In this document: piece after piece, positions 367 to 17,767 of the stretch
How the letters are laid out: the number at the start of each line of letters is the position of its first letter
How positions within the stretch are numbered: position 1 is the first letter of the stretch
Source: a virus
Taxonomy: Duplodnaviria > Heunggongvirae > Uroviricota > Caudoviricetes
Length of the DNA: 28,133 nt
IMG/VR virus record: IMGVR_UViG_3300046006_001304
Reading direction: 5' to 3' (one strand)
Made by a program: the position numbers and the translations under genes
The notes under the pieces: generated by a model
What the model saw: only the letters and a program-made list of their open reading frames with translations
Database searches by the model: none
Told to the model about the DNA's origin: nothing

Positions 367-443
367 TGGTCGGAGTACAAGGATTCGAACCTTGGACCCC
401 CTGGTCCCAAACCAGGTGCGCTACCAGACTGCGCTACACTCCG
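367..443 (-). tRNA. tRNA-Pro(UGG)
   Basis: Cloverleaf; CCTGG-TTTGGGA-CCAGG; TTCGAAT T-loop; CCA encoded. Confidence 0.97.
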
Positions 444-450
444 AAAAAAC

Positions 451-524
451 TGGAGCGGGATGAGAGAATCGAACTCTCGACAACAGATTGGAAATCTGTA
501 GTTTTGCCATTAAACTAATCCCGC
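451..524 (-). tRNA. tRNA-Gly(UCC)
   Basis: ACAGA-TTTCCAA-TCTGT; U73, CCA. Confidence 0.96.
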
Positions 525-529
525 AAAAT

Positions 530-738
530 TAGTGCCCGGCTACTCACACCACATGAGCCCCGGACTGAGCTGTTACTCTGTCCATAACATTTCTTCTTCT
601 GGAAAGGTGTTAAACCTCACCCAATGCGTTCCCGGTAGCCCCTAATTGAAGCTCGGATGGTCATAGCATTGAATACCTAGCACTCTCTATGGTGACTGCC
701 CCACCCCCGTTTATTACGTGTACGGGATCACGGGTTAT
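530..738 (-). ncRNA. candidate structured ncRNA between tRNA-Thr and tRNA-Gly
   Basis: GC-rich spacer with several stems (CCCGT/ACGGG, CATAG/CTATG, GGCTAC/GTAGCC, GGAC/GTCC, GCTCA/TGAGT); no credible ORF seen. Confidence 0.5.
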
Positions 739-739
739 C

Positions 740-815
740 TGGTGCCGCTTGTCGGAATCGAACTGACCACCTGCCGCTTACAAGGCGGCTGCTCTACCAA
801 ATGAGCTAAAGCGGC
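740..815 (-). tRNA. tRNA-Thr(UGU)
   Basis: GCCGC-CTTGTAA-GCGGC; CCA. Confidence 0.96.
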
Positions 816-825
816 ATTACTACTA

Positions 826-901
826 TGGTGGAGGTGACAAGGATCGAACTTGCTACATCCTGCTTGCAAAGCAGGCGCTCTCCCAAATGAGCTACACCCC
901 C
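826..901 (-). tRNA. tRNA-Ala(UGC)
   Basis: CCTGC-TTTGCAA-GCAGG; G3:U70; CCA. Confidence 0.97.
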
Positions 902-902
902 G

Positions 903-1058
903 TTATTCTTTCTCAGACTTTTTCTCTTCTTCTTTTTGTTCTACATCTTTATTTCTTAAGTAGGGCGGAACATACTTACCAAAAATAGTTTCAAACGAAT
1001 TATCAAAATCCTCTTTAGGCACATTAAACGGCCTAGGTTTACTGCCTTTACCTGACAT
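903..1058 (-). CDS. small hypothetical protein (51 aa, MSGKGSKPRPFNVPKEDFDNSFETIFGK...)
   Basis: Hand translation; GGAG SD upstream; not in ORF track (too short). Confidence 0.65.
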   Translation of the reverse strand: MSGKGSKPRPFNVPKEDFDNSFETIFGKYVPPYLRNKDVEQKEEEKKSEKE

Positions 1059-1071
1059 AACTACAATCTCC

Positions 1072-1668
1072 TTAAACTAAATTTGGCCCGCATATCCAAC
1101 CAACTAAGGATTTTCGTACTCCCCTAGTAACCGGTTCTACACTATGCGGTAAAAATGACGGAAATAATACCATATCACCTTTTTTTTCTAAAGTAGCAGT
1201 TATTGGATCTTTACATATATGAAACTTTAACTCACCACCGTCAAACTCTGATGAATCGTTCAATAAAATACTAAATGATATTTTTCTACTAAATCCACTA
1301 GTATTCCGCAATGTGCTGTCACAATGGACATCATATTTACCAACGTCTCCTGCGTGATATTCACTGTATTGTAACATCTCAATATAACTAAGGCTATATT
1401 TATAATGTACATTATTCACACCCGACACTATGTCAATAAGTTTGTTGTACATTGGCATGGCTTGCTCTATATCGTCCATCCATAAAATGTTAGAGCTTCT
1501 ATAAGAAAGGTCTACCCCATTTCCTTGGCCAACTGTTTCTGCTATGTGTAACTTATCACTATGTGTTGCCACATAATTGTCCATAAACTTAAAATCTTCT
1601 TCTTCGAATACTTTTGATATGTGATAATCCCACGATATTGATTGTTCAGGGGGTTCGAACCAAATCAT
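1072..1668 (-). CDS. 2OG-Fe(II) oxygenase (prolyl-4-hydroxylase/PKHD-like)
   Basis: HCD...RKISFSILLND...FDGGEL...PHSVEPVTRGVRKSLVGW: HxD...H...R motif. Confidence 0.9.
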   Translation of the reverse strand: MIWFEPPEQSISWDYHISKVFEEEDFKFMDNYVATHSDKLHIAETVGQGNGVDLSYRSSNILWMDDIEQAMPMYNKLIDIVSGVNNVHYKYSLSYIEMLQYSEYHAGDVGKYDVHCDSTLRNTSGFSRKISFSILLNDSSEFDGGELKFHICKDPITATLEKKGDMVLFPSFLPHSVEPVTRGVRKSLVGWICGPNLV

Positions 1669-1677
1669 AGTTAATCC

Positions 1678-1890
1678 TCACTCTGCCGCTGTAGCACTTG
1701 TACTGGTAGTATTATAATTACTACCTGGACGACTTTCTTTCTTAATAGTCTTTGGCACAATTGCGGCGCATAATTCTGCGTCAATCATAGCACGTTTCCA
1801 TGCTCCTCGTTTATGCGGATCTAGAACTCCGCTGGTTGCTAGACTTATTTTAGTCAAAGATGACATCTTATAATTTGGACCTGGTTTCAT
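1678..1890 (-). CDS. hypothetical protein
   Basis: 70-aa ORF filling the gap between tRNA-Ser and the oxygenase; GAGAG SD-like. Confidence 0.6.
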   Translation of the reverse strand: MKPGPNYKMSSLTKISLATSGVLDPHKRGAWKRAMIDAELCAAIVPKTIKKESRPGSNYNTTSTSATAAE

Positions 1891-1911
1891 ATATTTTCTC
1901 TCTTTTAAAAA

Positions 1912-1999
1912 TGGCGGAGTATGTAGGAATCGAACCTACTCACCCATTGCTGAATGACAGATTAGCAATCTGTTGCCTTAACCGGTCGGCCAATACTCC
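1912..1999 (-). tRNA. tRNA-Ser(GCU)
   Basis: ACAGA-TTGCTAA-TCTGT; long variable arm; G73, CCA. Confidence 0.95.
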
Positions 2000-2024
2000 A
2001 TGTACTTTACTTATTACTATATCC

Positions 2025-2109
2025 TGGTGCGACTGGCCGGAATCGAACCGGCACGCCCGAAAGCGAGAGATTTTAAGTCTCTTGTGTCTACCTATTTCAC
2101 CACAGTCGC
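2025..2109 (-). tRNA. tRNA-Leu(UAA)
   Basis: AGAGA-CTTAAAA-TCTCT; long variable arm; CCA. Confidence 0.96.
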
Positions 2110-2114
2110 ATTCT

Positions 2115-2342
2115 TTAAACTCTTTCTCGCTTTACACGACCAATACGGCTAGCCTTGTTCCAATCGTAAGCAACGCCATCTGGGCACTTACCATCTGCTA
2201 CAGAGTCAACTCCGAATCGACCTACTGCTTCAAAGTTGTTGCCTTTGATAGTTACGAACTCATCCATTGATTTAGCAACATTCATTGCTTCAGCAAGCGT
2301 AAGTACTTTAAAGGTTTCTTCTTTGCCTATTATTTTATACAT
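2115..2342 (-). CDS. hypothetical protein (early promoter directly upstream)
   Basis: 75-aa ORF starting 6 nt after a perfect TATAAT. Confidence 0.7.
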   Translation of the reverse strand: MYKIIGKEETFKVLTLAEAMNVAKSMDEFVTIKGNNFEAVGRFGVDSVADGKCPDGVAYDWNKASRIGRVKRERV

Positions 2343-2348
2343 GCTGTT

Positions 2349-2377
2349 ATTATACTCTCATCATGTGCTGTTGTCAA
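2349..2377 (-). promoter_or_regulatory. sigma70-type promoter
   Basis: TTGACA-17 nt-TATAAT, perfect consensus. Confidence 0.85.
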
Positions 2378-2390
2378 CACTTATTTTACT

Positions 2391-2464
2391 TGGCGTACCT
2401 CCAGGGACTCGAACCCCGACGAACAGTTTTGGAGACTGTCATGCTGCCATTACATTAGAGATAC
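2391..2464 (-). tRNA. tRNA-Trp(CCA)
   Basis: ACAGT-CTCCAAA-ACTGT; CCA. Confidence 0.93.
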
Positions 2465-2469
2465 ATGAT

Positions 2470-2559
2470 TGGCGGAAACGGTGAGATTCGAACTCACGGA
2501 CCCTTTCGAGCCGGCAGTTTTCAAGACTGCTGCAATAAACCGGACTCTGCCACATTTCC
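2470..2559 (-). tRNA. tRNA-Ser(UGA)
   Basis: GCAGT-CTTGAAA-ACTGC; long variable arm; G73, CCA. Confidence 0.96.
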
Positions 2560-2564
2560 TAATT

Positions 2565-2641
2565 TGGTGCCCCAGAGGAGACTCGAACTCCTAAAATTTG
2601 GCTTCTAAGACCAACACGTATACCAATTCCGTCACCGGGGC
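2565..2641 (-). tRNA. tRNA-Leu(UAG) with short variable loop
   Basis: TTGGT-CTTAGAA-GCCAA; Leu-type D loop; only 77 nt; CCA. Confidence 0.88.
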
Positions 2642-2661
2642 GATGTATTACTTACCATATA

Positions 2662-2779
2662 GGTGCTCTCTGCAGGAATCGAACCTGACTGTCTAACTCC
2701 GTATCTTCCTGAGCCTTTCACGTACGGGTCGACTTATACGCTTCTTATCGGTACTCAGTGTAGTTAAACTTCAGAAAGC
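2662..2779 (-). ncRNA. tRNA-like RNA with enlarged central region
   Basis: Acceptor GCTTTCT/AGAGAGC, T arm CAGG-TTCGATT-CCTG, ends ACC(T); ~85-nt centre without a canonical anticodon arm. Confidence 0.6.
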
Positions 2780-2786
2780 ATTTATA

Positions 2787-2861
2787 TGGAGACCCGTAGG
2801 AGAATCGAACTCCTCTTGCCAGGATGAAAACCTAGTGTCCTAACCGATAGACGAACGGGTC
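2787..2861 (-). tRNA. tRNA-Glu(UUC)
   Basis: CTAGG-TTTTCAT-CCTGG; CCA. Confidence 0.94.
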
Positions 2862-2877
2862 AAATTGTCTTTTAAAT

Positions 2878-2907
2878 TTTTAAGGAGCAGTGCTAGTGTT
2901 TGCTAGC
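2878..2907 (-). promoter_or_regulatory. boxB-like hairpin plus boxA-like antitermination site
   Basis: GCTAG-CAAACA-CTAGC followed by TGCTCCTTAAAA (rrn boxA consensus TGCTCTTTAACA), between promoter and tRNA run. Confidence 0.5.
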
Positions 2908-2916
2908 TAAGTGTTA

Positions 2917-2945
2917 ATTATATAGCCTATGTGTCACCCTGTCAA
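2917..2945 (-). promoter_or_regulatory. sigma70-type promoter
   Basis: TTGACA-17 nt-TATAAT. Confidence 0.85.
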
Positions 2946-2990
2946 CGTCTAAATGGACATTTGTGAAAATAAAACATAATAAATAACATC

Positions 2991-3644
2991 ATGCTACTAG
3001 ATCATTTACGAAATCGTTATACTGCCAAATGGTGGGATCCAATTCCATTGGAAGATGAAAAAATCAAAGCCATAATTGAGTGTGCGTATCTAGCGCCAAG
3101 TAAGCAAGGCAATTATGATTTTGAAATAGTTGTTCTTACAGACAGTCCTGCTGGCAAAGAATTTAAACAATGGTTGTACTGGGACAACACAGCCTGTTTA
3201 GATAAAGTGCGAGGCAAAACTGGTGAAGGACTACGTAGATACAATGGACAAGTCTTAGCACCCGTTGTAATGATTTGGTTAGCAAAACAATTTGATCAAG
3301 CAGTTAACGATTACAATGAAAACGAGTTCTTACGCACCAATAACGATTGTGTTATTAGTGCTACAATGGCCATGTGCCAAGCCGAAGAACTAGGAGTTAA
3401 TACAGGATTCTGCGGATGTATAGGTGGACAAGAAATTGCTGATAGATTAAACAAGCCCAAATCAACTGCGATAGTTAGTATGGGATTTGGGTATGCTACT
3501 AGCCATACTACAAACCGACCAATAAAAGTTTATAATAATAACGTTGAACTAGGCTTTGATCTTGCTAACCATCACTCCTCAATTAGAAATATTCCTAATA
3601 GAACTAACAGACTTGAGCTATCTACTATGGTAAATTATATATGA
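2991..3644 (+). CDS. nitroreductase-family protein
   Basis: R.T.K.W..PL...KI..I.E.A.LAPSKQG...V, and C-terminal A.ELGVNTGFCG...S.GFGY. Confidence 0.75.
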   Translation: MLLDHLRNRYTAKWWDPIPLEDEKIKAIIECAYLAPSKQGNYDFEIVVLTDSPAGKEFKQWLYWDNTACLDKVRGKTGEGLRRYNGQVLAPVVMIWLAKQFDQAVNDYNENEFLRTNNDCVISATMAMCQAEELGVNTGFCGCIGGQEIADRLNKPKSTAIVSMGFGYATSHTTNRPIKVYNNNVELGFDLANHHSSIRNIPNRTNRLELSTMVNYI

Positions 3645-4333
3645 AAGTACCTCCAGGCATTAGCGGACGTCCTGCGCTATACAACGGAAACGTTGATCAA
3701 ACCGCACTCGCAAACGAAGTAGCATTATTAAATCTTGGTCCGTTCGAGCCATTGAATTTTCATATTAATCTAAGTCAGTATCTACAAGAAATTAAACAAT
3801 TTGATAACGACTGGGTTAACTACTTACCGCGTACAGATCGTCCTAACAATCGTCGAGCAATGACATTAATGGCGTTACCCGGAAAGACTCACAAAGAAAA
3901 CACTAGTCTAGCAGAAGCTAGTTATGCCGCAGGCCGACAACTTAGCGAGTTAGAGTTTGATCAACCAACTGATGTTTATCGTGCTTGTGCTAGTTTACAT
4001 TCGTTTCTTGATCAATGGCAACCTCTAGGCAGAACATTTATTGTACAGAGTAATACAGGAGGATACTTTGTCCCGCATCGTGATCACCCAAGTATGCCTC
4101 GTGAATGTTTTAGACTAATTGTATTCTTGAACAACTGCGGTCCATTACAGTACGATTGGTTGATGGATGATAGAAAGATGAATATACAAATGGGTCAAGT
4201 CTACTACGTTAACACACGTATGACTCATCGTACTATAAGCTGGGTTGATAACAGTCAACACTTAATTTTGAACATTCCGTTTACTACAGAGAATGTAGCA
4301 AAGGTAATTGCTAATCTAGCCCATACTCATTAA
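3641..4333 (+). CDS. 2OG-Fe(II) oxygenase-like (Asp/Asn beta-hydroxylase-like fold)
   Basis: GGYFVPHRDH...GQVYYVNTRMTH. Confidence 0.72.
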   Translation: MKVPPGISGRPALYNGNVDQTALANEVALLNLGPFEPLNFHINLSQYLQEIKQFDNDWVNYLPRTDRPNNRRAMTLMALPGKTHKENTSLAEASYAAGRQLSELEFDQPTDVYRACASLHSFLDQWQPLGRTFIVQSNTGGYFVPHRDHPSMPRECFRLIVFLNNCGPLQYDWLMDDRKMNIQMGQVYYVNTRMTHRTISWVDNSQHLILNIPFTTENVAKVIANLAHTH

Positions 4334-4829
4334 AATATTCTTTAGCTTCGTTGAAGCTAACAGCTAGTCCCCAACTGATGATTAGTCTATGTTGCTTTCC
4401 AGCCATAACTGAATGTGGGGCATCAACACGCACAAACGATGGTTTAGTCAATGTGAATTCGAATGTTTTATTAACTGTACTTTCAAATTCGTAACCTATT
4501 AATTTATCACTATATACTAATTCATCTGTCGGCATTTCATAAAATGTAGTAATTGACCCTTGATGGCCTAGTAACGGTATATTTAAAGTAGCGGTGCGTT
4601 TAGCATCTATATGTGTTGGGAAACCTGTTTGAGGTTTTAAAAAATAAAAGTTCCAAACACTACCTAGTATTTTTTTATGTTTTTGAAATAGATAATTTGT
4701 ATATTCGTAATCAACTGCGTTTTGTTGGTGGTGTCTAAGGCCACTAACCTTTAAGTTGTTTATGATTGATATGAGCTGTTTAGTATCGAATATAACATCT
4801 AATTCGAATACGTACTCATTGTCAATCAT
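4311..4829 (-). CDS. 2OG-Fe(II)/cupin oxygenase-like protein
   Basis: FPTHIDA...LNIPL...VDAPHSV...R. Confidence 0.68.
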   Translation of the reverse strand: MIDNEYVFELDVIFDTKQLISIINNLKVSGLRHHQQNAVDYEYTNYLFQKHKKILGSVWNFYFLKPQTGFPTHIDAKRTATLNIPLLGHQGSITTFYEMPTDELVYSDKLIGYEFESTVNKTFEFTLTKPSFVRVDAPHSVMAGKQHRLIISWGLAVSFNEAKEYFNEYGLD

Positions 4830-5248
4830 GGCAATAAACTAATTGCGTCCTCAAATGGTACGTCTGACGGAATCTTAATAGCAAAAAAAAGTGATAGTGT
4901 TGCGGCCGGTGATAATTTTTGACGTTCTTTCCCGTTAATTGCAATAGGTGTGTCAATAAGAAAAGTCTCACCGTCTTCAAATTCAATTGAAATATTGTTA
5001 GTGATAGGGAATATAATTAAACCATTGTTATTAGGTTTAGCGTGCATTATTTCTGCTGTGACTAATTTAGATAGTCCGTATTCTTCTGAATTTAGCGTTC
5101 TACTAAAAATATCCATACAAGGCAGTGACTCAGTACTATACCCAACTGCTGACAAATATTGTTGAATACTACCTTGTTTTTCAGAGATGTTAAACAACGA
5201 TAATAGTTTTAATCTATCGTACTCTGTATTGAATTTTTTGTATTTCAT
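4826..5248 (-). CDS. hypothetical protein (possibly degenerate cupin)
   Basis: 140-aa ORF with ATGA-type overlap; no complete HxD..H motif. Confidence 0.6.
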   Translation of the reverse strand: MKYKKFNTEYDRLKLLSLFNISEKQGSIQQYLSAVGYSTESLPCMDIFSRTLNSEEYGLSKLVTAEIMHAKPNNNGLIIFPITNNISIEFEDGETFLIDTPIAINGKERQKLSPAATLSLFFAIKIPSDVPFEDAISLLP

Positions 5249-5265
5249 TATAATCTATCCTAATA

Positions 5266-5353
5266 TGGAGCGGCCGGGGGATTCGAACCTCCGTAGGCTA
5301 TATAGCCACCCGGTTTACGGCCGGGCACGTTTGGCCACTCTGTCACGAACCGC
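5266..5353 (-). tRNA. atypical tRNA with GUA (Tyr) anticodon
   Basis: CCCGG-CCGTAAA-CCGGG (C33); variable arm GGCTA-TA-TAGCC; irregular acceptor/T stems; U73, CCA. Confidence 0.7.
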
Positions 5354-5999
5354 GTACTATATTTAGTATCTTTTCAGCTACTATTATGTTTCCTTCTTCA
5401 GTAGTAAGATTTACAAAAAACGGATTTTTTGCTGGGTATTTTTCAAACACATCCATAATATCATAATCTACTGTTCCTGATTTAAATGTAAACCAACTTG
5501 GTACATTGTTTTGTCTAGGAAGAATGTGTAATGTTTTTATGCGTTTAAACGCAAGATATTGATCTATTTGTAGCAATGCGCCGTAATACCTATTTAGGGT
5601 TAAGTCTGGGTCATAAAAATATTGTCGATACGTGTTAACTGCGTTAAAAAAGTTTTCATTAGTATTAAAGACTTTTTTAAACAACGGCTGATTAGTTGCT
5701 GTAAATTCTGTATCTAGATGATCGTTTCTAAAAATGTCCTCAGCTCTTTTTGCTCTAAATGAGTTAGTGTCAATGTCTCTATCGCATCCAGGTAAGAATA
5801 AAAAACGTGGCAAGCAATGAAATACTATTGCTAAATCTACATTATGTGTTTTTTTTAATTCGTAAAGTATACGTTCTTCACTACCTTGTTTAACTCCTTG
5901 ATTAACTGCTGTACCGTTTAATCTATCAGCAACAATATCAATAAAACTGGCAGGCCCTCGATAGGCGCAGTTACTATGTCCATAAAATCCTATTCGCAT
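5343..5999 (-). CDS. hypothetical protein, weak SGNH/GDSL-like N-terminus
   Basis: IGFYGHS...NQGVKQGS; the C-terminal catalytic His motif is not evident. Confidence 0.55.
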   Translation of the reverse strand: MRIGFYGHSNCAYRGPASFIDIVADRLNGTAVNQGVKQGSEERILYELKKTHNVDLAIVFHCLPRFLFLPGCDRDIDTNSFRAKRAEDIFRNDHLDTEFTATNQPLFKKVFNTNENFFNAVNTYRQYFYDPDLTLNRYYGALLQIDQYLAFKRIKTLHILPRQNNVPSWFTFKSGTVDYDIMDVFEKYPAKNPFFVNLTTEEGNIIVAEKILNIVRGS

Positions 6000-6694
6000 A
6001 ATTTAGTAAAGATGCTTATGCCTAGTTTGCTTTTAATTCCCTGTTGCCTAAAGTCACTGGCACAATGTAATCTCACGCTGTCAAAAATAATAGCCTGTGT
6101 AGGAATCCAATCAATGGCAGAGTGTAGGCTTAACCCCTGCAACCAATGAGGCTTTAGGTGTGTAAAATACTGATGCTCATCTATAAACGGCTGATCAACT
6201 ATATTGTCTACATCGGTGTAGTCGTAAACTTGTTTGTTGTAGTATGTAGGGATGTCTTTACCATTGTTAAAGAACTTAGCCGGACCATGAAAATAAAATT
6301 GATCAAAGAAACATAATTTAGGAATAGCAGTGCCATCAATATGCAAGGGTATAGTTATTGCCTTATACACATCAGGCAATTCAAACGTATCGTCATTATG
6401 TATAATATGCGGAGTTTCTGTATAAAAGAAAAAAGCCGCAGTAATTTCAAAGGCGCCTAACGTTAATTTTAATTTTTCTATTATGCTAGCAATTACCGGA
6501 TCTGTAATATAATTTTTTAAATCTAATGTTACTGGTCCGGTATTTTTATAAACTGCTGGAGAATTTATATTATTGTGTTCGTTTGAGTAAAGCGAAACCA
6601 AATGATCGACATCCTCTTTGCTTAAGAAGTGTTCTATAGCATATGGATTGCTAACTCGAGATTTAATTTTGGCAATACTATCTTTATTCCGCAT
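5990..6694 (-). CDS. 2OG-Fe(II)/cupin oxygenase-like protein
   Basis: PHIIHNDD...ITIPL...FDSVRLHCA. Confidence 0.65.
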   Translation of the reverse strand: MRNKDSIAKIKSRVSNPYAIEHFLSKEDVDHLVSLYSNEHNNINSPAVYKNTGPVTLDLKNYITDPVIASIIEKLKLTLGAFEITAAFFFYTETPHIIHNDDTFELPDVYKAITIPLHIDGTAIPKLCFFDQFYFHGPAKFFNNGKDIPTYYNKQVYDYTDVDNIVDQPFIDEHQYFTHLKPHWLQGLSLHSAIDWIPTQAIIFDSVRLHCASDFRQQGIKSKLGISIFTKLCE

Positions 6695-6720
6695 GGTGTA
6701 TTTATTAGGTTAAATACACC

Positions 6721-7293
6721 ATGACATATTTTAAAAGAGTAAAATTAGATAATATACCATATGCGGAAATATTAAAAAATCTTACAATTCCAAGCGGCGC
6801 AGGGCAAGTTAGCCCATTACCGCATGATGTTAAATTTAAACTAGCAGAGCTTTTAAAAATAGATCTAGATCAGTGCGTCCAATCTAGAATAATGATAGTA
6901 TACTTTCCACCCCTCGGAAGTGTTAATATACACTCTGATAAACCAGTAGAAGATTTACCTGAAGGAAAATTGGATCAATGTATAATAGTTCCAATAGACA
7001 ATTTCCAAGATGTTGAATGGACTTGGTACGAAGTATTAGATTATTCAAAAATATATCATTACGGTCAAAAAGAAAATTGGAAAACAGTGCCAATGGTGCC
7101 AGTCACTGCTACAAAAGCCGTAGAAAAAATTAAATGTAACAGCGCATTTATCGCTGACATTGGCACATGGCACTCATTAAAAAATTTTAGTAATAAGCCC
7201 GCTGTTGCTCTTAGCATTAGACTGATGCCCTGGAGTTGGGAGGATTTTAAAACTAGCAGTTTGCCTCCAATGAAGGGTGTAACATTGGGATGA
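6721..7293 (+). CDS. 2OG-Fe(II)/cupin oxygenase-like protein
   Basis: VNIHSD...IIVPI...DIGTWHSL...LSIR. Confidence 0.65.
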   Translation: MTYFKRVKLDNIPYAEILKNLTIPSGAGQVSPLPHDVKFKLAELLKIDLDQCVQSRIMIVYFPPLGSVNIHSDKPVEDLPEGKLDQCIIVPIDNFQDVEWTWYEVLDYSKIYHYGQKENWKTVPMVPVTATKAVEKIKCNSAFIADIGTWHSLKNFSNKPAVALSIRLMPWSWEDFKTSSLPPMKGVTLG

Positions 7294-7823
7294 ACTATTT
7301 CAAGTACTTAGATTTAAATTGGCAACCTAGTGCTGTTAAACTAAAACAATACATCTACGATAACGAGCAAGATCTTTTAACAGGATTTCATTCATCATGG
7401 AAGGCGGTTGACACTAATGATGTTATCAGCAAAGTACCTGAACTTATAGATATGCTGTTGCCACTAGGTGTTACTATACGGTATGTTGCATTTTTTATCA
7501 GTAATTATCCAGTTGGTACAATTCATATTGACGCGGATACTTATTCAAAAGTACGGATTAATATTCCAATTATTAATTGCGAGCACACTGAAACTAGATT
7601 CTATACTACATCAGCACCACTAATTCGAGTATTACAACAAAATGGCATTCCACTATTTAAAATTGATCCTACTAAGTGTACTCACGTTGATCAATTTTAT
7701 TTAACACAAGCTGTATTATTTAGAAATACTGAACCTCATCAAGTAATAAGCAATAATTTAGTACACCCACGAATATCTTGTACTATAGGACTCAACGAAG
7801 ATTTATCTTATTTGTTAGAGTAG
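7290..7823 (+). CDS. 2OG-Fe(II)/cupin oxygenase-like protein
   Basis: TIHIDAD...RINIPI...RNTEPHQV...RISCTI. Confidence 0.7.
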   Translation: MNYFKYLDLNWQPSAVKLKQYIYDNEQDLLTGFHSSWKAVDTNDVISKVPELIDMLLPLGVTIRYVAFFISNYPVGTIHIDADTYSKVRINIPIINCEHTETRFYTTSAPLIRVLQQNGIPLFKIDPTKCTHVDQFYLTQAVLFRNTEPHQVISNNLVHPRISCTIGLNEDLSYLLE

Positions 7824-8345: not shown

Positions 8346-8359
8346 ACTAATATTTATAT

Positions 8360-15034: not shown

Positions 15035-15109
15035 TGGCGGTCTGTGGGGGAATCGAACCCCCGTAAGTGGATAGACAATCCACAGTAATAACCTCTATAC
15101 GAACAGACC
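15035..15109 (-). tRNA. tRNA-Asp(GUC), second copy
   Basis: GTGGA-TTGTCTA-TCCAC; G73, CCA. Confidence 0.92.
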
Positions 15110-15116
15110 TTAAACT

Positions 15117-15202
15117 TGGTGGAGTATCCTGGGATCGAACCAGGCGTGCCATTACGACGGCGGATTTACAGTCCACTGCATCACCATTGATGCTTCTACT
15201 CC
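15117..15202 (-). tRNA. tRNA-Tyr(GUA)
   Basis: GTGGA-CTGTAAA-TCCGC; long variable arm; A73, CCA. Confidence 0.95.
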
Positions 15203-15210
15203 ATGCTTAA

Positions 15211-15239
15211 ATTATAACACTCTCCCTCTATGATGTCAA
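15211..15239 (-). promoter_or_regulatory. sigma70-type promoter immediately upstream of tRNA-Tyr, embedded in an inverted repeat
   Basis: TTGACA-17 nt-TATAAT. Confidence 0.75.
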
Positions 15240-15470
15240 CCGCGTCGTAGGCGGAGGTGGAAAGTGTTTATTAAAGCATACTCGGCTTGTGACCTTATCC
15301 CCTAAACATTCTAGTTTCGGAATATGCTTTAATAACTAGTATTTTCTTCCCACAAGAGGGAATGCCATCCACTAGTCCGCCCGTTCGCTACGTGTTTTAA
15401 GTGCGTAGCAGAGTCCTCGTTACTCTATATTCACACTTTGCGTCAACGACTGCCTTGGCAATCTCAGCGT

Positions 15471-15508
15471 TAAAAACAAAAAACCCCAGGGTTTTAATCC
15501 TAGGGTCC
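15471..15508 (-). terminator. intrinsic terminator/attenuator
   Basis: GACCCTAGG-8 nt-CCTGGGGTT stem followed by TTTTGTTTTT. Confidence 0.8.
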
Positions 15509-15538
15509 TTGAAGTTTCGAAATGTATTAAGTTGTTAC

Positions 15539-15679
15539 TTAACCATCCCAGCCCTCCCGGACCCTGGTAATCTCTGGTGTGCGATCATATGATAGACTAT
15601 TAATCGCTAACCAGCAAGAGGCTATAACGCCTGCCTGTTTTGGCATCGGATTAAAATGATGTCTGTTAAATGATTGCAT
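15539..15679 (-). CDS. putative attenuator leader peptide (46 aa)
   Basis: MQSFNRHHFNPMPKQAGVIASCWLAINSLSYDRTPEITRVREGWDG*; lies between promoters and terminator; contains CCAGGGTCC, complementary to the terminator 5' arm. Confidence 0.7.
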   Translation of the reverse strand: MQSFNRHHFNPMPKQAGVIASCWLAINSLSYDRTPEITRVREGWDG

Positions 15680-15736
15680 TTTGGTTCTCGTTTACTCTCT
15701 TAAAATTTACTAGCGGAATGCTAGTGTCTTGTGTTA

Positions 15737-15765
15737 ATTATAGTGTCTTTCAACACCTCTGTCAA
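15737..15765 (-). promoter_or_regulatory. sigma70-type promoter for leader and tRNA array
   Basis: TTGACA-17 nt-TATAAT. Confidence 0.85.
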
Positions 15766-15818
15766 CATGTTTTGGCTAACTACAAAAAATATTTATCTCT
15801 TGCTGTTAATTAGTTTCT

Positions 15819-15847
15819 ATTATAAGAGTATTTATATCTCTTGTCAA
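15819..15847 (-). promoter_or_regulatory. tandem sigma70-type promoter with an internal T4-late-like TATAAATA
   Basis: TTGACA-17 nt-TATAAT; spacer contains TATAAATA. Confidence 0.8.
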
Positions 15848-15879
15848 GAACTATATGATAATGTGGTATTTTTACAACT

Positions 15880-16368
15880 TTAGGTTCGAACCGCCCCGAC
15901 TAAGTGTAATCTTGGTTCCTCAGAACAGTTCATAAATGAGTGGAACCGTGTGGTATCAGTTAAGTAAACATTGTTTACTGCCAAGTGGTACGGGGAAATT
16001 TCTTTAAAAGTAAAATAGCATTGACTGTTAGTTATTAATGGAATATGAATGCGAGGGCTTTCATCTTTGTGCATGCTGTAACATGCGTAGGGATTCAACC
16101 ACATCAGTCGTGTTTTAAATAATTTGTATTTGTTAATTAGCTCTTCAAATACAGTATCTTTAAAAAATGGATTTAAAATTGTTGAGGCAAATTCATCACC
16201 GCTACTTCGACCAACCGCACTCGCCCAAACGTCTTCGTTTATTTTATGTTGTAGACCAACTTGTTTTCCCTTAAATCCATAGTCGGCCCAAATCATATTA
16301 GGCTCGAGTCTAGTGTACTCATCTATAATTGGGGTGACATTGATTGTGTCAAGTATTTTTATTAGCAT
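15880..16368 (-). CDS. Asp/Asn beta-hydroxylase-like 2OG-Fe(II) oxygenase
   Basis: YSMHKDE.PRIHIPLITN...DTTRFHSFMNCS...RLHLV. Confidence 0.8.
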   Translation of the reverse strand: MLIKILDTINVTPIIDEYTRLEPNMIWADYGFKGKQVGLQHKINEDVWASAVGRSSGDEFASTILNPFFKDTVFEELINKYKLFKTRLMWLNPYACYSMHKDESPRIHIPLITNSQCYFTFKEISPYHLAVNNVYLTDTTRFHSFMNCSEEPRLHLVGAVRT

Positions 16369-16383
16369 AAAATATTTAGTCGT

Positions 16384-16408
16384 AAAAAAAGCCCCTGCGG
16401 GCTTTTTC
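16384..16408. terminator. intrinsic terminator (possibly bidirectional)
   Basis: A7-GCCC-CTGC-GGGC-T5. Confidence 0.8.
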
Positions 16409-16543
16409 TTAGAATGCCATTTCTTCGTATTCGTCTTTACCTACTCCGCATTCTGGACACTCAAAAGTTGCTGGAAGTTCATCCCATTTGCCTTCTAGTT
16501 CTTCATCGTGGACATGTCCACATACAATACATACGTGTTCCAT
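16409..16543 (-). CDS. rubredoxin
   Basis: Hand translation MEHVCIVCGHVHDEELEGKWDELPATFECPECGVGKDEYEEMAF: CxxC...W..LP..F.CPxCG..K. Confidence 0.92.
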   Translation of the reverse strand: MEHVCIVCGHVHDEELEGKWDELPATFECPECGVGKDEYEEMAF

Positions 16544-16992
16544 TATAGTGCCTCCAAAACTTGTTTATAAGCATTAGCATGGCGTTGCTCAACTTTTTGT
16601 AGAGCGGCAAAACGCTTTTCTGCTTTGGCTAATACTTGGGCAAATTGTTCTGCGTGTTCTTTGCTTTCTTCAATTTGATGACCTGCTTCAAAGGCAGCTT
16701 TAGTATTACCTTCGATCTCTGCGGCACGTTTAAAGTCTGGATACATTGTAGTGAATTCATATGTTTCACCCTCGATAGCTTTTTCTAAACATTCTTTAGT
16801 TGTTGGCTTACCGATGAGCAATTCTAAATGGCCCCATGCGTGTAGCAGTTCTTGATCTGCTGTATGTTCAAAATGTTTAGCAACATCTTCATACCCTTCT
16901 TCACGAGCAATCTTTGCAAAATAGCGATACTTAGTATGTGCTTGACTTTCACCTGCGAAAGCGGCCTCTAAGTTTTTAATTGTAATTGACAT
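16543..16992 (-). CDS. rubrerythrin (ferritin-like di-iron domain)
   Basis: NLEAAFAGESQA..KY..FAKIAREEG...E..HA...GETYE...MYP...E..HA; start MSITIK with GGAG SD. Confidence 0.92.
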   Translation of the reverse strand: MSITIKNLEAAFAGESQAHTKYRYFAKIAREEGYEDVAKHFEHTADQELLHAWGHLELLIGKPTTKECLEKAIEGETYEFTTMYPDFKRAAEIEGNTKAAFEAGHQIEESKEHAEQFAQVLAKAEKRFAALQKVEQRHANAYKQVLEAL

Positions 16993-17094
16993 AGTGTCTC
17001 CTTGTGTGTTTGTGCTATTATATAGCCTATTAAACTCCAAGGTCAATAGTTTTTCACTATAATTATTTCTATTAGGCTTATAGCTTTGTTTAAT

Positions 17095-17119
17095 AAAGAA
17101 ACCCGCCGGAGCGGGTTCT
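17095..17119 (-). terminator. intrinsic terminator after tmRNA
   Basis: AGAACCCGC-TCCG-GCGGGTTTCT-TTATT. Confidence 0.8.
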
Positions 17120-17495
17120 GCTATTTTGGATGACAAGGTATAACTACCTCGCAAGTGCTGTTTCTTAGGCAGCTAGTGCAAATGCGTCATCGTTTAAGGC
17201 GACGTCGACTTGCATGTACTTGAATGTATTTGCGTTTGCATTTACGATTTTTGTATTTTACGTGACCCCACGTGTTGAGTCGTTATCCTATCTCACCCTG
17301 TCGAAACCATGGCAGGCCCATTTAAACACACTTTGGTTTATTAAGAGTTATAGCTATGCTAAAGAGCTCCTGGGATACCAAACCTGATCTTTTTACAGAT
17401 TCAAGTATGCTTAGGTGGACCTGGCGGGAGTCGAACCCGCGTCCAGAACGCCTTACTTTACAACTTTGTCCATTCAAGGACTACAACAATTCCTT
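17120..17495 (-). ncRNA. ssrA: circularly permuted (two-piece) tmRNA
   Basis: Acceptor piece ...GGACGCGGGTTCGACTCCCGCCAGGTCCACC (3' end ~17414) precedes a ~94-nt spacer and the coding piece starting GGGCCTG..TTTCGAC (17319); G3:U70; tag ANANTFKYMQVDVALNDDAFALAA* at 17165-17239; outer limits approximate. Confidence 0.9.
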
Positions 17496-17563
17496 ACATA
17501 AAAACATGTATCAAAACAAATATAACAATTAAAACTGTTACAATGAATTGATACGCTTTCATT

Positions 17564-17767
17564 TTACTCTGGATGAATATTACTAGCTTGCTTACCCTTC
17601 ATTCCCTGTACTACATCAAACGTTACTGCTTGATTTTCTTGTAGAACTTTAAAACCTGGAGTCTGTATTGCTGAGTAGTGAGCAAATAAATCCTCACCGC
17701 CGTTGTCTGGAGTAATAAATCCAAAACCTTTGGTTTCATTAAACCATTTTACTTTACCTGTTGCCAT
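17564..17767 (-). CDS. cspA: cold-shock protein (CspA family)
   Basis: [28 protein letters not shown]; TTGCGT-17-TATAAT promoter at 17795-17823. Confidence 0.95.

What the first reader, a model, noticed from the sequence alone, without database searches (positions are those of the whole stretch)
367..17495. Integrated tRNA-protection module: sensor, 32 tRNAs, decoys, end-healing enzymes and tmRNA
Seen co-located on one strand: the attenuator, a near-complete tRNA set with many altered anticodon loops, anticodon-mimic RNAs, tRNA-like ncRNAs, a kinase plus phosphoesterases and a tmRNA. Inference: the region works as a coordinated counter-defence against host translation shut-off (tRNA cleavage, ribosome stalling) rather than simple codon-usage compensation.
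Basis: inference. Interest (0 to 1): 0.7.

Follow-up and report, generated by a model that had tools for sequence, protein, structure and literature searches.

The report
Phage tRNA island with Ro60-like system
An uncultured giant water phage keeps about 34 tRNA genes, a tmRNA, small RNAs that copy tRNA anticodon loops, a Ro60-like RNA-binding protein and RNA-end-modifying enzymes in one same-strand neighbourhood. This fits the published idea that big phages defend translation against host attack, but it is several separately transcribed units with no RNA ligase, not one sensor-driven machine.

Summary
On the minus strand there are 32 tRNA or tRNA-like genes, plus 2 more just outside the window. 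There is also a two-piece tmRNA, three ~70-nt RNAs showing exact anticodon loops, larger tRNA-like RNAs, a polynucleotide-kinase-family kinase, two phosphatases, and a leader ORF with a covarying helix that competes with its terminator. "Many altered anticodon loops" is not confirmed: only 3 of 32 break the U33/purine-37 rule.

The missing centrepiece lies 1.3 kb outside the window. It is a DUF2828 protein that folds like Ro60, preceded by three more "helix+ACAGCAA" RNAs. In 18 related phages, tRNAs, handle RNAs, the Ro60-like gene, phosphatase, phosphoesterase and kinase form one contiguous same-strand cluster.

Weighing against a single integrated machine:
- seven consensus promoters drive separate units;
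- no RNA ligase, SmpB or CCA enzyme is found in near-complete relatives;
- the kinase/phosphatase linkage is limited to this clade.

The concept is already published (Iyer 2021; Bas63 gp130). This scan has also reported the handle-RNA/Ro60-like pairing many times on other DNA. Verdict: partly supported, a new variant of a known kind.

The parts
367..901 (-). tRNA genes Pro(UGG), Gly(UCC), Thr(UGU), Ala(UGC). A conserved structured spacer RNA lies between them at 528-738.
   Evidence: ARAGORN and Rfam. The spacer is conserved in 5 loci and folds at -66 kcal/mol.
1912..2861 (-). tRNA genes Ser(GCU), Leu(UAA), Trp, Ser(UGA), Leu(UAG), Glu(UUC), and small ORF 2115-2342. Perfect promoters lie at 2377-2349 and, just upstream of this span, at 2945-2917.
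   Evidence: Homologues of ORF 2115 sit beside the Ro60-like gene in relatives.
2655..2780 (-). tRNA-like RNA of about 125 nt. It has an acceptor-type stem and a T arm (GGTTCGATTCC) with a long extended arm in place of the D and anticodon arms.
   Evidence: Fold and repeat family D1/D5. One homologue carries compensatory changes. ARAGORN does not call it.
5266..5353 (-). Tyr-like class-II tRNA or tRNA-like gene: anticodon GUA, C33, U73, CCA encoded.
   Evidence: ARAGORN at relaxed threshold. Rfam tRNA-Sec model 28.5 bits, E 0.05. No homologue in the fetched loci.
8360..10018 (-). tRNA genes Arg(UCG), Arg(UCU), Thr(GGU), Leu(CAA), Phe(GAA), interleaved with AspH-like cupin ORFs.
10070..10576 (-). 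P-loop kinase of the polynucleotide 5'-kinase clade.
   Evidence: Pfam AAA_33. The profile of 15 homologues has significant PDB matches (E<=5e-4) only to PSTK (1.3e-7), Pnkp1 (1.1e-6), the C. thermocellum Pnkp kinase domain, T4 Pnk (1.5e-4) and mammalian PNKP.
10712..11275 (-). Calcineurin-type metallophosphoesterase (DxH, GD, GNHD, GHxH motifs invariant).
   Evidence: phrog_547, 3.7e-55. Aquifex aq_1665 (1xm7), 4.5e-14. Invariant columns.
11288..11863 (-). Three small ORFs (81, 55 and 66 aa) behind the perfect promoter at 11894-11866. They travel with the phosphatase/kinase block in relatives.
11922..12359 (-). Cysteine phosphatase of the DSP/PTP superfamily (invariant HCxAGxCRSG loop).
   Evidence: Pfam Tc-R-P, DSPc and PTP-SAK. 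Invariant columns. Weak PDB PTP hits.
12379..12762 (-). tRNA genes His, Arg(ACG), Gln, Gly(GCC).
12613..12686 (-). Handle RNA 1. A 7-8 bp closing helix (AGGAUAG...CUAUCCU) is followed by ACAGCAA. The inner hairpin has loop CUUGAAA, equal to the tRNA-Ser(UGA) loop. It ends in UG + U-run.
13582..13656 (-). tRNA-Met(CAU) elongator type or Ile2 type.
13660..13885 (-). Long handle-type RNA of about 225 nt. It has a closing helix plus a UUAGCAA variant of the motif (UCAGCAA in relatives). Its body carries an anticodon arm with loop CUUCGAA (Arg-UCG) and a T arm.
   Evidence: Conserved in 12 loci.
13888..14040 (-). tRNA-Lys(UUU) and tRNA-Lys(CUU).
14264..14332 (-). Handle RNA 2, inner loop CUUUUAA (Lys-UUU).
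14333..14626 (-). tRNA-Thr(UGU), tRNA-Asp(GUC, U37), tRNA-Glu(UUC).
14627..14696 (-). Handle RNA 3, inner loop CUUUUAA (Lys-UUU). Relative to handle RNA 2 it carries one compensatory pair change in the inner stem.
14697..15202 (-). Main tRNA cluster: a class-II-shaped tRNA with UAU anticodon, Ile(GAU), an initiator-like Met, Asn, Asp(U37) and Tyr. It is driven by the perfect promoter at 15239-15211.
15243..15470 (-). Conserved multi-hairpin RNA between the terminator and the tRNA promoter. Conserved loops are AACGAGG and CACUUAAAACA, with junction GAACGGGCGG and a variable insert that is tRNA-like in some relatives.
   Evidence: Present downstream of the terminator in 19 of 27 relatives. No Rfam match.
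15471..15847 (-). Two perfect sigma70 promoters (15847-15819, 15765-15737), a 46-codon leader ORF (15679-15539), segment 2 (15567-15559), and an intrinsic terminator (15510-15479) whose 5' arm also pairs with segment 2.
16543..16992 (-). Rubrerythrin-like gene behind an 11/12 promoter (17046-17017). It is a neighbour, not obviously part of the system.
17074..17513 (-). Two-piece (permuted) tmRNA with tag ending ...NDDAFALAA, and a terminator at 17118-17099.
17564..17767 (-). cspA-type cold-shock protein gene, 58 nt upstream of the tmRNA. The adjacency is kept in relatives.

Best explanation
WHAT IT IS
The span is the early, host-RNA-polymerase-transcribed 'translation and RNA-conflict' neighbourhood of an uncultured aquatic jumbo phage. 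CheckV rates the 46.8-kb contig as 13% complete, so the genome is roughly 350 kb. It is not one operon. It is at least four units kept close together on one strand:
1. A near-complete tRNA set in seven or more sub-clusters, each behind its own consensus sigma70 promoter.
2. A Ro60-like ring protein encoded just outside the window, with at least seven partner RNAs. Each partner has a 'handle' (a 7-bp helix plus ACAGCAA, closing strand, UG). They display bare anticodon arms (Lys-UUU twice, Ser-UGA) or larger tRNA bodies (Arg-UCG). With them come a polynucleotide-kinase-family kinase, a calcineurin-type phosphoesterase and a Cys-phosphatase. In relatives these enzymes sit directly behind the Ro60-like gene.
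3. cspA followed by a two-piece tmRNA.
4. A translated leader whose 3' end can pair with the 5' arm of its own terminator. It sits ahead of a conserved structured RNA and the largest tRNA cluster.

SHOWN
- The genes and RNAs exist.
- The RNA helices covary.
- The protein has a Ro60 fold.
- The kinase is a PNK-family member.
- The neighbourhood is conserved within the clade.

INFERRED
- The phage supplies its own tRNAs and tmRNA so that translation continues when host tRNAs are cut or run down.
- The Ro60-like protein binds the handle and presents anticodon arms to proteins that read anticodon loops (anticodon nucleases or modification enzymes), as bait or adaptor.
- The kinase and phosphatases remodel the 5'-OH and 2',3'-cyclic or 3'-phosphate ends that such nucleases leave. 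Any sealing would be left to a host ligase, or there may be no sealing at all.
- The leader/terminator switch couples read-through to ribosome traffic on the leader.
For: - tRNAs and tmRNA.
- Seven consensus promoters, all on the minus strand.
- Handle RNA family: at least 118 viral loci. 89% of cells are paired, with covariation 0.39 against 0.12 in shuffles (0 of 500 shuffles reach it). Anticodon-type loops occur in 55 of 77 copies against 17% in shuffles.
- Ro60-like gene: DUF2828/DUF7788. All 13 Foldseek hits at E<=2e-4 are Ro60/TROVE, including phage phiLo Ro60 (E 1.2e-7, TM 0.56-0.58). Three handles lie directly upstream of it.
- Association: DUF2828 is in 35 of 49 handle-bearing records against 8 of 48 random tRNA-bearing viral records (Fisher p = 5e-8). 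In 7 of those 8 control positives a helix+ACAGCAA or close-variant (NCAGCAA) element lies near the gene, in most of them just upstream on the same strand. Felix O1 has the same arrangement.
- Kinase in the PNK clade. Catalytic motifs of both phosphatases are invariant.
- Contiguous cluster in 18 relatives. The median Ro60-like-to-kinase distance is 4.2 kb in genomes of up to 383 kb.
- tmRNA in 3 of 3 near-complete relatives, on the same strand.
- Leader: the ORF is kept open at 46-51 codons in 23 of 25 relatives. The segment 2:3 helix covaries, the terminator is 97.5% paired, and the two share columns 250-254.
- Literature: jumbo phages combine tRNAs, RNA-repair enzymes and occasionally TROVE proteins against host attack on translation (PMC7824862). 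The Ro60-like gp130 of Bas63, directly upstream of its tRNAs, counters the ppl defence (10.1101/2024.10.10.617714). Phage Ro60 binds Y-like RNAs encoded upstream of its gene (PMC12135203).
Against: - No RtcB, PF09414 or PF09511 ligase, SmpB or CCA-adding enzyme in five relatives, three of them at least 94% complete. The PF09511 control rang nowhere, so that one result is inconclusive.
- The Ro60-like gene does not match Pfam TROVE, and the RNAs match no Rfam Y-RNA model.
- The kinase/phosphatase linkage is confined to close relatives. It is absent around the gene in Felix O1 and in 6 of 8 independent loci, so it could be inherited synteny.
- In this contig the block is split from the Ro60-like gene by 11 kb that includes unrelated oxygenase genes on both strands.
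- Consensus promoters argue for constitutive early expression.
- Only 3 of 32 anticodon loops are unusual.
- The leader shows no protein-level constraint (76 synonymous against 256 non-synonymous differences) and has no run of regulatory codons.
- No binding, cleavage or expression data exist for this phage.
Confidence: 0.5

Rival explanations
1. This is an ordinary hyperplastic early region. The tRNAs serve codon supply and translational autonomy of a very large, 40% GC phage. The other genes are unrelated accessory cargo that accumulates here because the region tolerates insertions and shares early promoters. On this view, co-location reflects modular shuffling and common descent, not joint function.
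For: - The many independent consensus promoters act as cassette boundaries.
- Unrelated 2OG-oxygenase, nitroreductase and rubrerythrin genes, some on the other strand, are interleaved.
- Gene order and distances vary among relatives.
- Ro60-like genes occur without the kinase and phosphatases elsewhere.
- tmRNA occurs in the Melnitz group with only four tRNAs (PMC9004378).
- U34-rich anticodons fit A/U-ending codon supply.
Against: - The handle RNAs are tied to the Ro60-like gene in independently sampled phages, and they copy anticodon loops far above chance.
- Ro60-like, PTP, MPP and kinase are directly contiguous in 18 relatives despite rearrangements.
- The Bas63 Ro60-like gene has a measured anti-defence phenotype.
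Confidence: 0.3
2. The Ro60-like particle is offensive, not protective. Like phiLo Ro60, it would recruit a host exonuclease such as PNPase through its RNAs. Together with the kinase and phosphatases, it would process or destroy host RNAs (tRNAs, rRNA, defence RNAs), while the phage's own tRNA set replaces them.
For: - phiLo Ro60 with Yrl RNAs and host PNPase forms a RYPER-like complex (PMC12135203).
- There is no ligase in relatives, so repair is incomplete.
- A near-complete own tRNA set would make host tRNAs dispensable.
Against: - No nuclease gene was identified in the conserved cluster, though its small ORFs were not examined.
- Anticodon-arm display suggests interaction with anticodon readers, not with exonucleases.
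- Nothing here has been tested.
Confidence: 0.1
3. The ~70-nt elements are only processing or termination spacers of the tRNA precursors (a hairpin followed by a U-run), or recombination cassettes. Their anticodon-like loops would be leftovers of decayed tRNA genes. The 'attenuator' would be a small early gene with an ordinary terminator.
For: - The elements start 1-3 nt after a tRNA CCA end in most copies (CCA within the 6 nt upstream in 96 of 122 listed copies) and end in G + U-run just before the next tRNA.
- Some family members still keep a T arm (12 of 158 copies).
- The terminator itself is canonical.
Against: - The invariant ACAGCAA and the end nucleotides are conserved from lake jumbo phages to Felix O1, always beside a Ro60-like gene.
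- The inner hairpin covaries and keeps C32-U33...A37-A38 while the anticodon varies.
- The segment 2:3 helix of the leader covaries and overlaps the terminator.
Confidence: 0.07

Closest known systems
tRNA provisioning plus RNA-repair systems of jumbo phages (Iyer, Anantharaman, Krishnan, Burroughs, Aravind 2021, PMC7824862; Burroughs and Aravind 2016)
   Same: A large phage with about 20-30 tRNAs, a polynucleotide kinase, a calcineurin-like phosphoesterase and a ROT/TROVE-type RNA-binding protein. The authors interpret this set as countering host attack on tRNAs.
   Different: In that survey, kinases and phosphoesterases go together with RtcB or Rnl ligases. No ligase was found here or in near-complete relatives. 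The handle RNAs, the leader switch and the tmRNA are not part of that description.
Bacterial Ro60 (Rsr) with Y RNAs, including tRNA-like YrlA and the Salmonella rsr-yrlBA-rtcBA RNA-repair operon (Chen 2014, PMC4201824; Hughes 2020, PMC7790460); phage phiLo Ro60 with Yrl1/Yrl2 (PMC12135203)
   Same: A ring protein with a HEAT-repeat ring and a vWA domain. Its partner RNAs are encoded directly upstream and mimic parts of tRNA. It is linked to enzymes that act on RNA ends.
   Different: The protein is DUF2828/DUF7788 and has no Pfam TROVE match. The RNAs use a 7-bp helix plus ACAGCAA handle and match no Rfam Y-RNA model. The linked enzymes are a kinase and phosphatases, not the RtcB ligase and RtcA cyclase.
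Felix O1 ORF86 and Bas63 gp130 (preprint 10.1101/2024.10.10.617714)
   Same: Felix O1 ORF86 is a homologue (36% identity) lying directly next to the tRNA cluster, with at least 4 helix+ACAGCAA RNAs among the tRNAs. The Ro60-like gp130 of Bas63, a Felixounavirus, sits in the same position and was reported to counter the ppl defence; the authors guessed that some 'tRNAs' are Y RNAs. That gp130 is itself a DUF2828 homologue is inferred, not checked here.
   Different: Within 4-5 kb of the Felix O1 gene there is no kinase, PTP or MPP block. ppl is not known to target tRNA.
Phage T4 Pnkp + Rnl1 repair of PrrC-cleaved tRNA-Lys; bacterial Pnkp/Hen1 (C. thermocellum Pnkp, Pnkp1-Rnl-Hen1)
   Same: A kinase of the same clade. 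The kinase plus metallophosphoesterase pairing equals the healing half of bacterial Pnkp. The Lys-UUU anticodon loop, the PrrC target, is the loop most often displayed.
   Different: The enzymes are separate polypeptides. There is an extra Cys-phosphatase. No ligase or Hen1 is present. No activity has been tested.
Two-piece tmRNA of Methylophilales phage Melnitz and pelagimyophages (PMC9004378)
   Same: A permuted ssrA in an aquatic myophage that also carries the curli CsgG/CsgF and CHASE2-cyclase genes (44% identity in the cyclase).
   Different: There is no glutamine riboswitch here (no Rfam hit), and cspA lies upstream instead. This phage has 34 tRNAs against four. The tmRNA scores as the betaproteobacterial type.
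Leader-peptide transcription attenuators (trp, his, thr type)
   Same: A promoter, a short translated leader, an intrinsic terminator, and a competing helix that overlaps both the ORF end and the terminator's 5' arm.
   Different: There is no run of regulatory codons. What lies downstream is non-coding RNA and tRNAs, not biosynthetic genes. A second constitutive promoter follows. The direction of the response is unknown.

Membership tests
Ro60/Y-RNA ribonucleoprotein (Rsr-YrlA type) | Ring of HEAT-like repeats plus a vWA domain (Ro60 fold) | tested here: met
   The AlphaFold model has pLDDT 68 and pTM 0.63. All 13 Foldseek hits at E<=2e-4 are Ro60/TROVE structures, with TM up to 0.58-0.61 over about 508 columns.
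Ro60/Y-RNA ribonucleoprotein (Rsr-YrlA type) | Sequence membership in Pfam TROVE (PF05731) | tested here: not met
   No match in the own contig or in 49 related records, while the controls rang. The protein is DUF2828 + DUF7788.
Ro60/Y-RNA ribonucleoprotein (Rsr-YrlA type) | Partner RNA matches a known Y-RNA model (Rfam YrlA RF02553 and similar) | tested here: not met
   cmscan at E<=1 gives only a 24.5-bit YrlA hit (gathering score 69), and it lies over two tRNAs. Nothing lies on the handle RNAs.
Ro60/Y-RNA ribonucleoprotein (Rsr-YrlA type) | Structured partner RNAs encoded next to the protein gene and co-occurring with it | tested here: met
   Three handles lie directly upstream of the gene. 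The association is 35 of 49 against 8 of 48 records. Handles or close variants lie beside the gene in 7 of 8 independent loci and in Felix O1.
Ro60/Y-RNA ribonucleoprotein (Rsr-YrlA type) | Physical binding of the RNA by the protein | not testable with these tools
   No tool here models RNA-protein complexes. This needs EMSA or RIP-seq.
Heal-and-seal RNA repair (T4 Pnkp/Rnl1; bacterial Pnkp/Hen1; RtcAB) | Polynucleotide 5'-kinase | tested here: met
   Met by homology only. The profile has significant hits only to PNK-clade kinases, E 1e-7 to 5e-4, and the Walker A motif is invariant.
Heal-and-seal RNA repair (T4 Pnkp/Rnl1; bacterial Pnkp/Hen1; RtcAB) | 2',3'-cyclic or 3'-phosphate phosphoesterase | tested here: inconclusive
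   A metallophosphoesterase and a Cys-phosphatase with intact motifs are present. Their substrates are unknown, and the nearest solved relative (aq_1665) is uncharacterised.
Heal-and-seal RNA repair (T4 Pnkp/Rnl1; bacterial Pnkp/Hen1; RtcAB) | RNA ligase (RtcB, Rnl1, Rnl2 or the Pnkp ligase domain) | tested here: not met
   There are no PF01139 or PF09414 hits in 5 relatives, 3 of them at least 94% complete. PF09511 was also negative, but its control was silent. The own genome is only 13% sampled and the ligase families were not searched in it.
trans-translation system | tmRNA with a tRNA-like domain and a tag reading frame | tested here: met
   ARAGORN calls a permuted tmRNA with tag ...NDDAFALAA. 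RF04321 scores 105.9 bits and RF01850 94.6 bits.
trans-translation system | SmpB partner encoded by the phage | tested here: not met
   No PF01668 hit in 5 relatives. The host SmpB would have to be used.
Leader-peptide transcription attenuator | Short translated ORF, intrinsic terminator, and a mutually exclusive competing helix | tested here: met
   The ORF is kept open in 23 of 25 relatives. The competing helix covaries (pair 180-254: AU 16, GC 7, GU 2, none unpaired). The terminator is 97.5% paired and shares 5 columns with that helix.
Leader-peptide transcription attenuator | Regulatory codons, and a response to charged-tRNA supply | not testable with these tools
   No codon run is visible. 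The amino-acid sequence is unconstrained (76 synonymous against 256 non-synonymous differences). The response needs reporter assays.
Nuclease-resistant phage tRNAs (anticodon-loop variants; T5 tRNA-Lys against PARIS) | Anticodon-loop changes relative to the host or canonical tRNA that block cleavage | tested here: inconclusive
   Only 3 of 32 loops break the U33/R37 rule. tRNA-Asp with U37 recurs in 34 of 61 distinct Asp genes of the clade.

The most novel reading that the evidence does not exclude
The Ro60-like ring, its handle RNAs that display bare anticodon arms, and the ligase-less trio of PNK-type kinase, metallophosphoesterase and Cys-phosphatase form one device of a kind not yet described. 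The displayed arms would bait anticodon nucleases or other anticodon readers. [quoted passage not shown] Damaged-tRNA fragments could then no longer act as alarm signals for host systems (RtcR-type or newer tRNA-fragment signalling). On this reading the aim is to silence the signal, not to repair the tRNAs. The leader/terminator switch would tune a second scaffold RNA and the main tRNA cluster to ribosome traffic.
Probability: 0.15. Interest if true: 0.9.

Novelty: new variant of a known kind. Interest (0 to 1): 0.6.

Why it matters
tRNA-cleaving defences (PrrC, RloC, PARIS, retron and Cas13-type effectors) are now recognised as a main front of phage-host conflict. The known phage answers are spare tRNAs and heal-and-seal repair.

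This locus adds two things. First, in a whole clade of giant lake phages the spare tRNAs sit with a Ro60-like particle whose RNAs copy anticodon loops. Second, they sit with end-modifying enzymes but no ligase. That points to a third strategy, bait or signal erasure.

The same protein-RNA pair sits in Felix O1, one of 711 cultured-phage records that carry a homologue of the protein (among them phages of Listeria, Staphylococcus, Campylobacter, Vibrio and mycobacteria). The idea is therefore directly testable in laboratory systems.

The covarying leader/terminator switch ahead of non-coding RNAs would be an unusual use of attenuation.

Tried and rejected
- Megablast of 9 kb against cultured phages gave no match. 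The nearest cultured relatives, found by protein, are Melnitz and HTVC008M at 35-44% identity.
- Pfam TROVE was negative everywhere. I had first taken this as evidence against the Ro60 link reported in earlier scan notes. DUF2828 and the fold search then confirmed the link.
- No Rfam family covers the handle RNAs, the 15243-15470 RNA, or any glutamine riboswitch near the tmRNA. The weak YrlA and cspA-thermoregulator hits are overlaps with tRNAs and with the cspA coding region.
- I considered reading the handle element as a promoter. Only the CUUGAAA subtype has TTGAAA-16-TATCCT. I dropped this because both helices covary.
- I considered a T4 MotA-box reading of the reverse complement and an integron attC-like reading. 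Spacing and symmetry do not fit, by inspection.
- ARAGORN at low thresholds gives many spurious calls. Only those with Rfam support or clear T arms were kept.
- The 596-682 'tRNA-Sec' call was rejected because it has no T loop.
- phrog_6931, a 343-aa family with a C-terminal kinase match, is not a phosphoesterase-kinase fusion.
- Whether efficient translation of the leader causes read-through or termination could not be decided. Segment 2 can also form a local GNRA-capped hairpin, so both logics are possible.
- Codon-usage compensation could not be tested because the host is unknown.
- Complex prediction was not used, because it cannot take RNA.

Full report
**What the window is.** The window is bases 6968-35100 of a single 46.8-kb IMG/VR virus contig. 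CheckV rates the contig 13% complete, which implies a phage genome of roughly 350 kb. There is no nucleotide match among cultured phages. By protein, the CHASE2-cyclase and the curli CsgG/CsgF genes at 21-28 kb resemble those of Methylophilales phage Melnitz and Pelagibacter phage HTVC008M at 35-44% identity. Two-piece tmRNAs are already described in that group (PMC9004378).

**Checking the observation: tRNAs and tmRNA.** ARAGORN finds 30 tRNA genes and a permuted tmRNA, all on the minus strand. Rfam confirms 29 of the 30 and adds a tRNA at 15120-15202 (the exceptions are discussed below). At a relaxed threshold that extra gene is tRNA-Tyr(GUA). A second Tyr-like class-II gene appears at 5266-5353. 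tRNA-Val and tRNA-Arg(CCU) lie just outside the window. Nearly all genes encode CCA.

The anticodon loops are mostly canonical. Only the two tRNA-Asp genes (U37) and the Tyr-like gene (C33) break the universal U33/purine-37 pattern, so "many altered anticodon loops" does not hold. Two ARAGORN calls do not pass Rfam's tRNA model. The 92-nt class-II-shaped tRNA with a UAU anticodon scores only with the tRNA-Sec model, below its gathering score. The initiator-like Met with a shrunken D arm gets no Rfam tRNA hit.

The tmRNA scores 105.9 bits with RF04321 and 94.6 bits with the betaproteobacterial model. It carries a ...NDDAFALAA tag and its own terminator, and it lies 58 nt behind a cspA-type gene. 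No glutamine riboswitch of the Melnitz kind is detected.

**Transcription.** Six perfect TTGACA-17-TATAAT promoters and one 11/12 promoter lie on the minus strand, each at the head of a sub-cluster. About 0.002 perfect sites would be expected by chance in this length. The span is therefore several early units read by host polymerase, not one operon. It is also interrupted by about 5 kb of nitroreductase and cupin/2OG-oxygenase genes, some on the plus strand.

**The "decoys".** Three ~70-nt repeats begin within a few nucleotides of a tRNA 3' end. Each has four parts:
- a 7-8-bp closing helix followed by ACAGCAA;
- an A-rich linker;
- a 5-bp hairpin with a 7-nt loop;
- the closing strand followed by UG and a U-run.

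The loops are CUUUUAA (twice) and CUUGAAA. These are identical to the loops of the phage's own tRNA-Lys(UUU) and tRNA-Ser(UGA).

In an alignment of 66 copies, 89% of cells pair. The covariation score is 0.39 against 0.12 in shuffles (0 of 500 shuffles reach it), and sliding the partners destroys the signal. Among 79 distinct interiors, 77 contain the 5-bp/7-nt hairpin. In 55 of those 77 the loop has U at position 2 and a purine at position 6, against 17% in shuffles. Lys-UUU is the commonest loop (20 copies), followed by Ser, Tyr, Arg and Asn types.

A fourth, ~225-nt member at 13660-13885 uses a variant of the motif (UUAGCAA here, UCAGCAA in relatives). It carries an Arg-UCG-type anticodon arm and a T arm, and it is conserved in 12 loci. 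The elements are thus a real, structured RNA family that displays tRNA parts. No Rfam family covers them.

**The missing centrepiece.** Earlier notes of this scan linked such RNAs to a DUF2828 protein, so I tested that link.
- Pfam TROVE was negative everywhere.
- DUF2828 hit the own contig at 4208-5686, minus strand, 1.3 kb beyond the window start. Three more helix+ACAGCAA elements lie directly in front of it, after tRNA-Val.
- A model of the protein (pLDDT 68) retrieves only Ro60/TROVE structures as its 13 hits at E<=2e-4. These include Ro60 of Thermus phage phiLo, frog and human Ro60, and Deinococcus Rsr.
- DUF2828 is present in 35 of 49 handle-bearing records, including 3 of 3 that are at least 90% complete. 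It is present in only 8 of 48 randomly drawn tRNA-bearing viral records (Fisher p = 5e-8).
- In 7 of those 8 control positives, a helix+ACAGCAA or close-variant (NCAGCAA) element lies near the gene, in most of them just upstream on the same strand (18 elements against 4.9 in shuffles).
- Homologues exist in 711 cultured-phage records.
- In Felix O1 the gene (ORF86) directly precedes the tRNA cluster, which holds at least four handle RNAs.
- A 2024 preprint reports that the Ro60-like gp130 of the Felix O1 relative Bas63 lies directly upstream of its tRNAs and counters the ppl defence. Its authors guess that some "tRNAs" are Y RNAs.

**The enzymes.** A profile of the kinase and 14 homologues has significant PDB matches only to the polynucleotide-kinase clade: PSTK, Pnkp1, the C. 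thermocellum Pnkp kinase domain, T4 Pnk and mammalian PNKP. The E-values run from 1e-7 to 5e-4, and the next family (shikimate kinase) scores 0.06. The phosphoesterase keeps all metallophosphoesterase motifs and resembles Aquifex aq_1665. The third enzyme keeps the HCxAGxCRSG loop of Cys-phosphatases and hits the DSP-PTPase models that Pfam names after the 'Swiss Army Knife' protein and polymorphic toxin systems.

In 18 related records the order along one strand is tRNAs, 1-4 handle RNAs, the Ro60-like gene, a small ORF, PTP, a small ORF, and then MPP and kinase in either order, all packed within 4-9 kb. Not every record has every member. Across 20 records that hold both genes, the median distance from the Ro60-like gene to the kinase is 4.2 kb, in genomes of up to 383 kb; one record is an outlier at 52 kb. 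In this contig the enzyme block has been moved 11 kb away, and tRNAs and oxygenase genes lie between.

Two limits apply. The linkage does not extend beyond the clade: Felix O1 and 6 of 8 independent DUF2828 loci lack these enzymes nearby. And five relatives, three of them at least 94% complete, have no RtcB, Rnl2-type or Rnl1-type ligase, no SmpB and no CCA-adding enzyme. The Rnl1 search had a silent control, so that result is inconclusive.

**The "sensor".** Behind two perfect promoters lies a 46-codon ORF (15679-15539) followed by a strong terminator (15510-15479). The element is conserved in 24 distinct relatives.
- The frame stays open at 46-51 codons in 23 of 25 sequences.
- Substitutions show no codon-position bias (0.15, 0.15 and 0.19 at the three positions). 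Synonymous against non-synonymous differences are 76 against 256.
- This pattern suggests that translation is selected, not the peptide.
- The helix between codons 38-41 and the terminator's 5' arm covaries. One pair reads AU 16, GC 7, GU 2, with none unpaired.
- The terminator is 97.5% paired.
- The two helices share five columns, so they exclude each other.

The architecture of an attenuator is therefore supported. However, segment 2 can also form a local GNRA-capped hairpin, so I cannot tell which way the switch responds to ribosome stalling.

Downstream comes a conserved multi-hairpin RNA (15243-15470), present in 19 of 27 relatives. A same-strand tRNA lies within 0.2-1.2 kb in 27 of 27 relatives, although these loci were sampled from tRNA-rich regions. 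A further perfect promoter (15239) drives the main tRNA cluster regardless of the switch.

**Reading.** The parts exist, and within this clade they stay together. The best-supported mechanism is a loose neighbourhood of translation-maintenance and RNA-conflict functions, not a single sensor-controlled machine:
- a constitutive supply of tRNAs and tmRNA;
- a Y-RNA-like particle that presents anticodon arms;
- end-remodelling enzymes without a sealing step.

The general idea is already published for jumbo phages (PMC7824862). The handle-RNA/Ro60-like pairing has been reported many times by this scan on other DNA. New here are four points:
- the contiguous Ro60-like/PTP/MPP/PNK cluster without a ligase;
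- the covarying leader switch ahead of non-coding RNAs;
- the recurrent U37 tRNA-Asp (34 of 61 distinct Asp genes in the clade);
- the consistent tmRNA position, 13-39 kb upstream on the same strand.

Function remains inferred throughout.

Noticed in passing
outside the window: G000:C1:4208-5686 (-) = L127:874-2352:-; handle RNAs at about G000:C1:5610-6100: A Ro60-like DUF2828/DUF7788 gene with three helix+ACAGCAA RNAs directly upstream, just past tRNA-Val and tRNA-Arg(CCU). It is the likely protein partner of the window's handle RNAs.
   Followed up: yes
window 14697-14788 (-): A 92-nt class-II-shaped tRNA: long variable arm, 3-bp D stem, A73, anticodon UAU. 22 distinct copies of 90-98 nt occur in related loci, and further copies occur in independently sampled phages (L133, L272, L273). 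It could be a TilS-independent AUA reader or a tRNA charged by LeuRS.
   Followed up: partly
window 14413-14487 and 15035-15109 (-): Both tRNA-Asp(GUC) genes carry U37, a pyrimidine where tRNAs almost always have a purine. U37 occurs in 34 of 61 distinct tRNA-Asp genes of the clade, and these make up more than half of all non-canonical loops among 1298 tRNAs.
   Followed up: partly
window 15243-15470 (-): A conserved ~215-nt multi-hairpin RNA. It has a closing stem AAGUGUG/CACACUU, covarying hairpins with invariant loops AACGAGG and CACUUAAAACA, and junction GAACGGGCGG. A variable insert, closed by UUAAAGCAUA/UAUGCUUUAA, holds T-arm-like pieces in some relatives. There is no Rfam match.
   Followed up: partly
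window 528-738 (-): A 210-nt structured spacer between tRNA-Thr and tRNA-Gly (-66 kcal/mol), conserved in five related loci. Its function is unknown.
   Followed up: no
window 14872-14945 (-): An initiator-like tRNA-Met (C1:A72 mismatch, CGCGGG start) with a much reduced D arm. ARAGORN calls it, but Rfam's tRNA model does not.
   Followed up: no
window 14127-14252 (-): A small, very basic 41-codon ORF with a Shine-Dalgarno sequence immediately after handle RNA 2. The segment that contains it recurs in many relatives at about 75-94% nucleotide identity.
   Followed up: no
window 17564-17767 (-): A cspA-type cold-shock gene sits 58 nt upstream of the tmRNA, and the adjacency is kept in relatives (L061, L078, L108). 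There is no glutamine riboswitch, unlike the Melnitz tmRNA.
   Followed up: partly
window 1072-9836, both strands: About ten paralogous cupin / 2OG-Fe(II) / AspH-like ORFs and a nitroreductase-family gene are interleaved with the tRNA clusters. In relatives the Ro60-like cluster is contiguous, without them.
   Followed up: no
window 19614-28132: A fatty-acid desaturase, a D-Ala-D-Ala carboxypeptidase, a CHASE2-adenylate/guanylate cyclase, a FecR-like gene, curlin-repeat proteins, and CsgG and CsgF. This is the curli-type block known from Melnitz and HTVC008M.
   Followed up: partly
L275 (Salmonella phage Felix O1, AF320576.1, 23.7-24.7 kb): At least four helix+ACAGCAA RNAs lie among the annotated tRNAs just downstream of ORF86, the DUF2828 homologue. 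One carries a T arm. All end in GGUC + UGG.
   Followed up: partly
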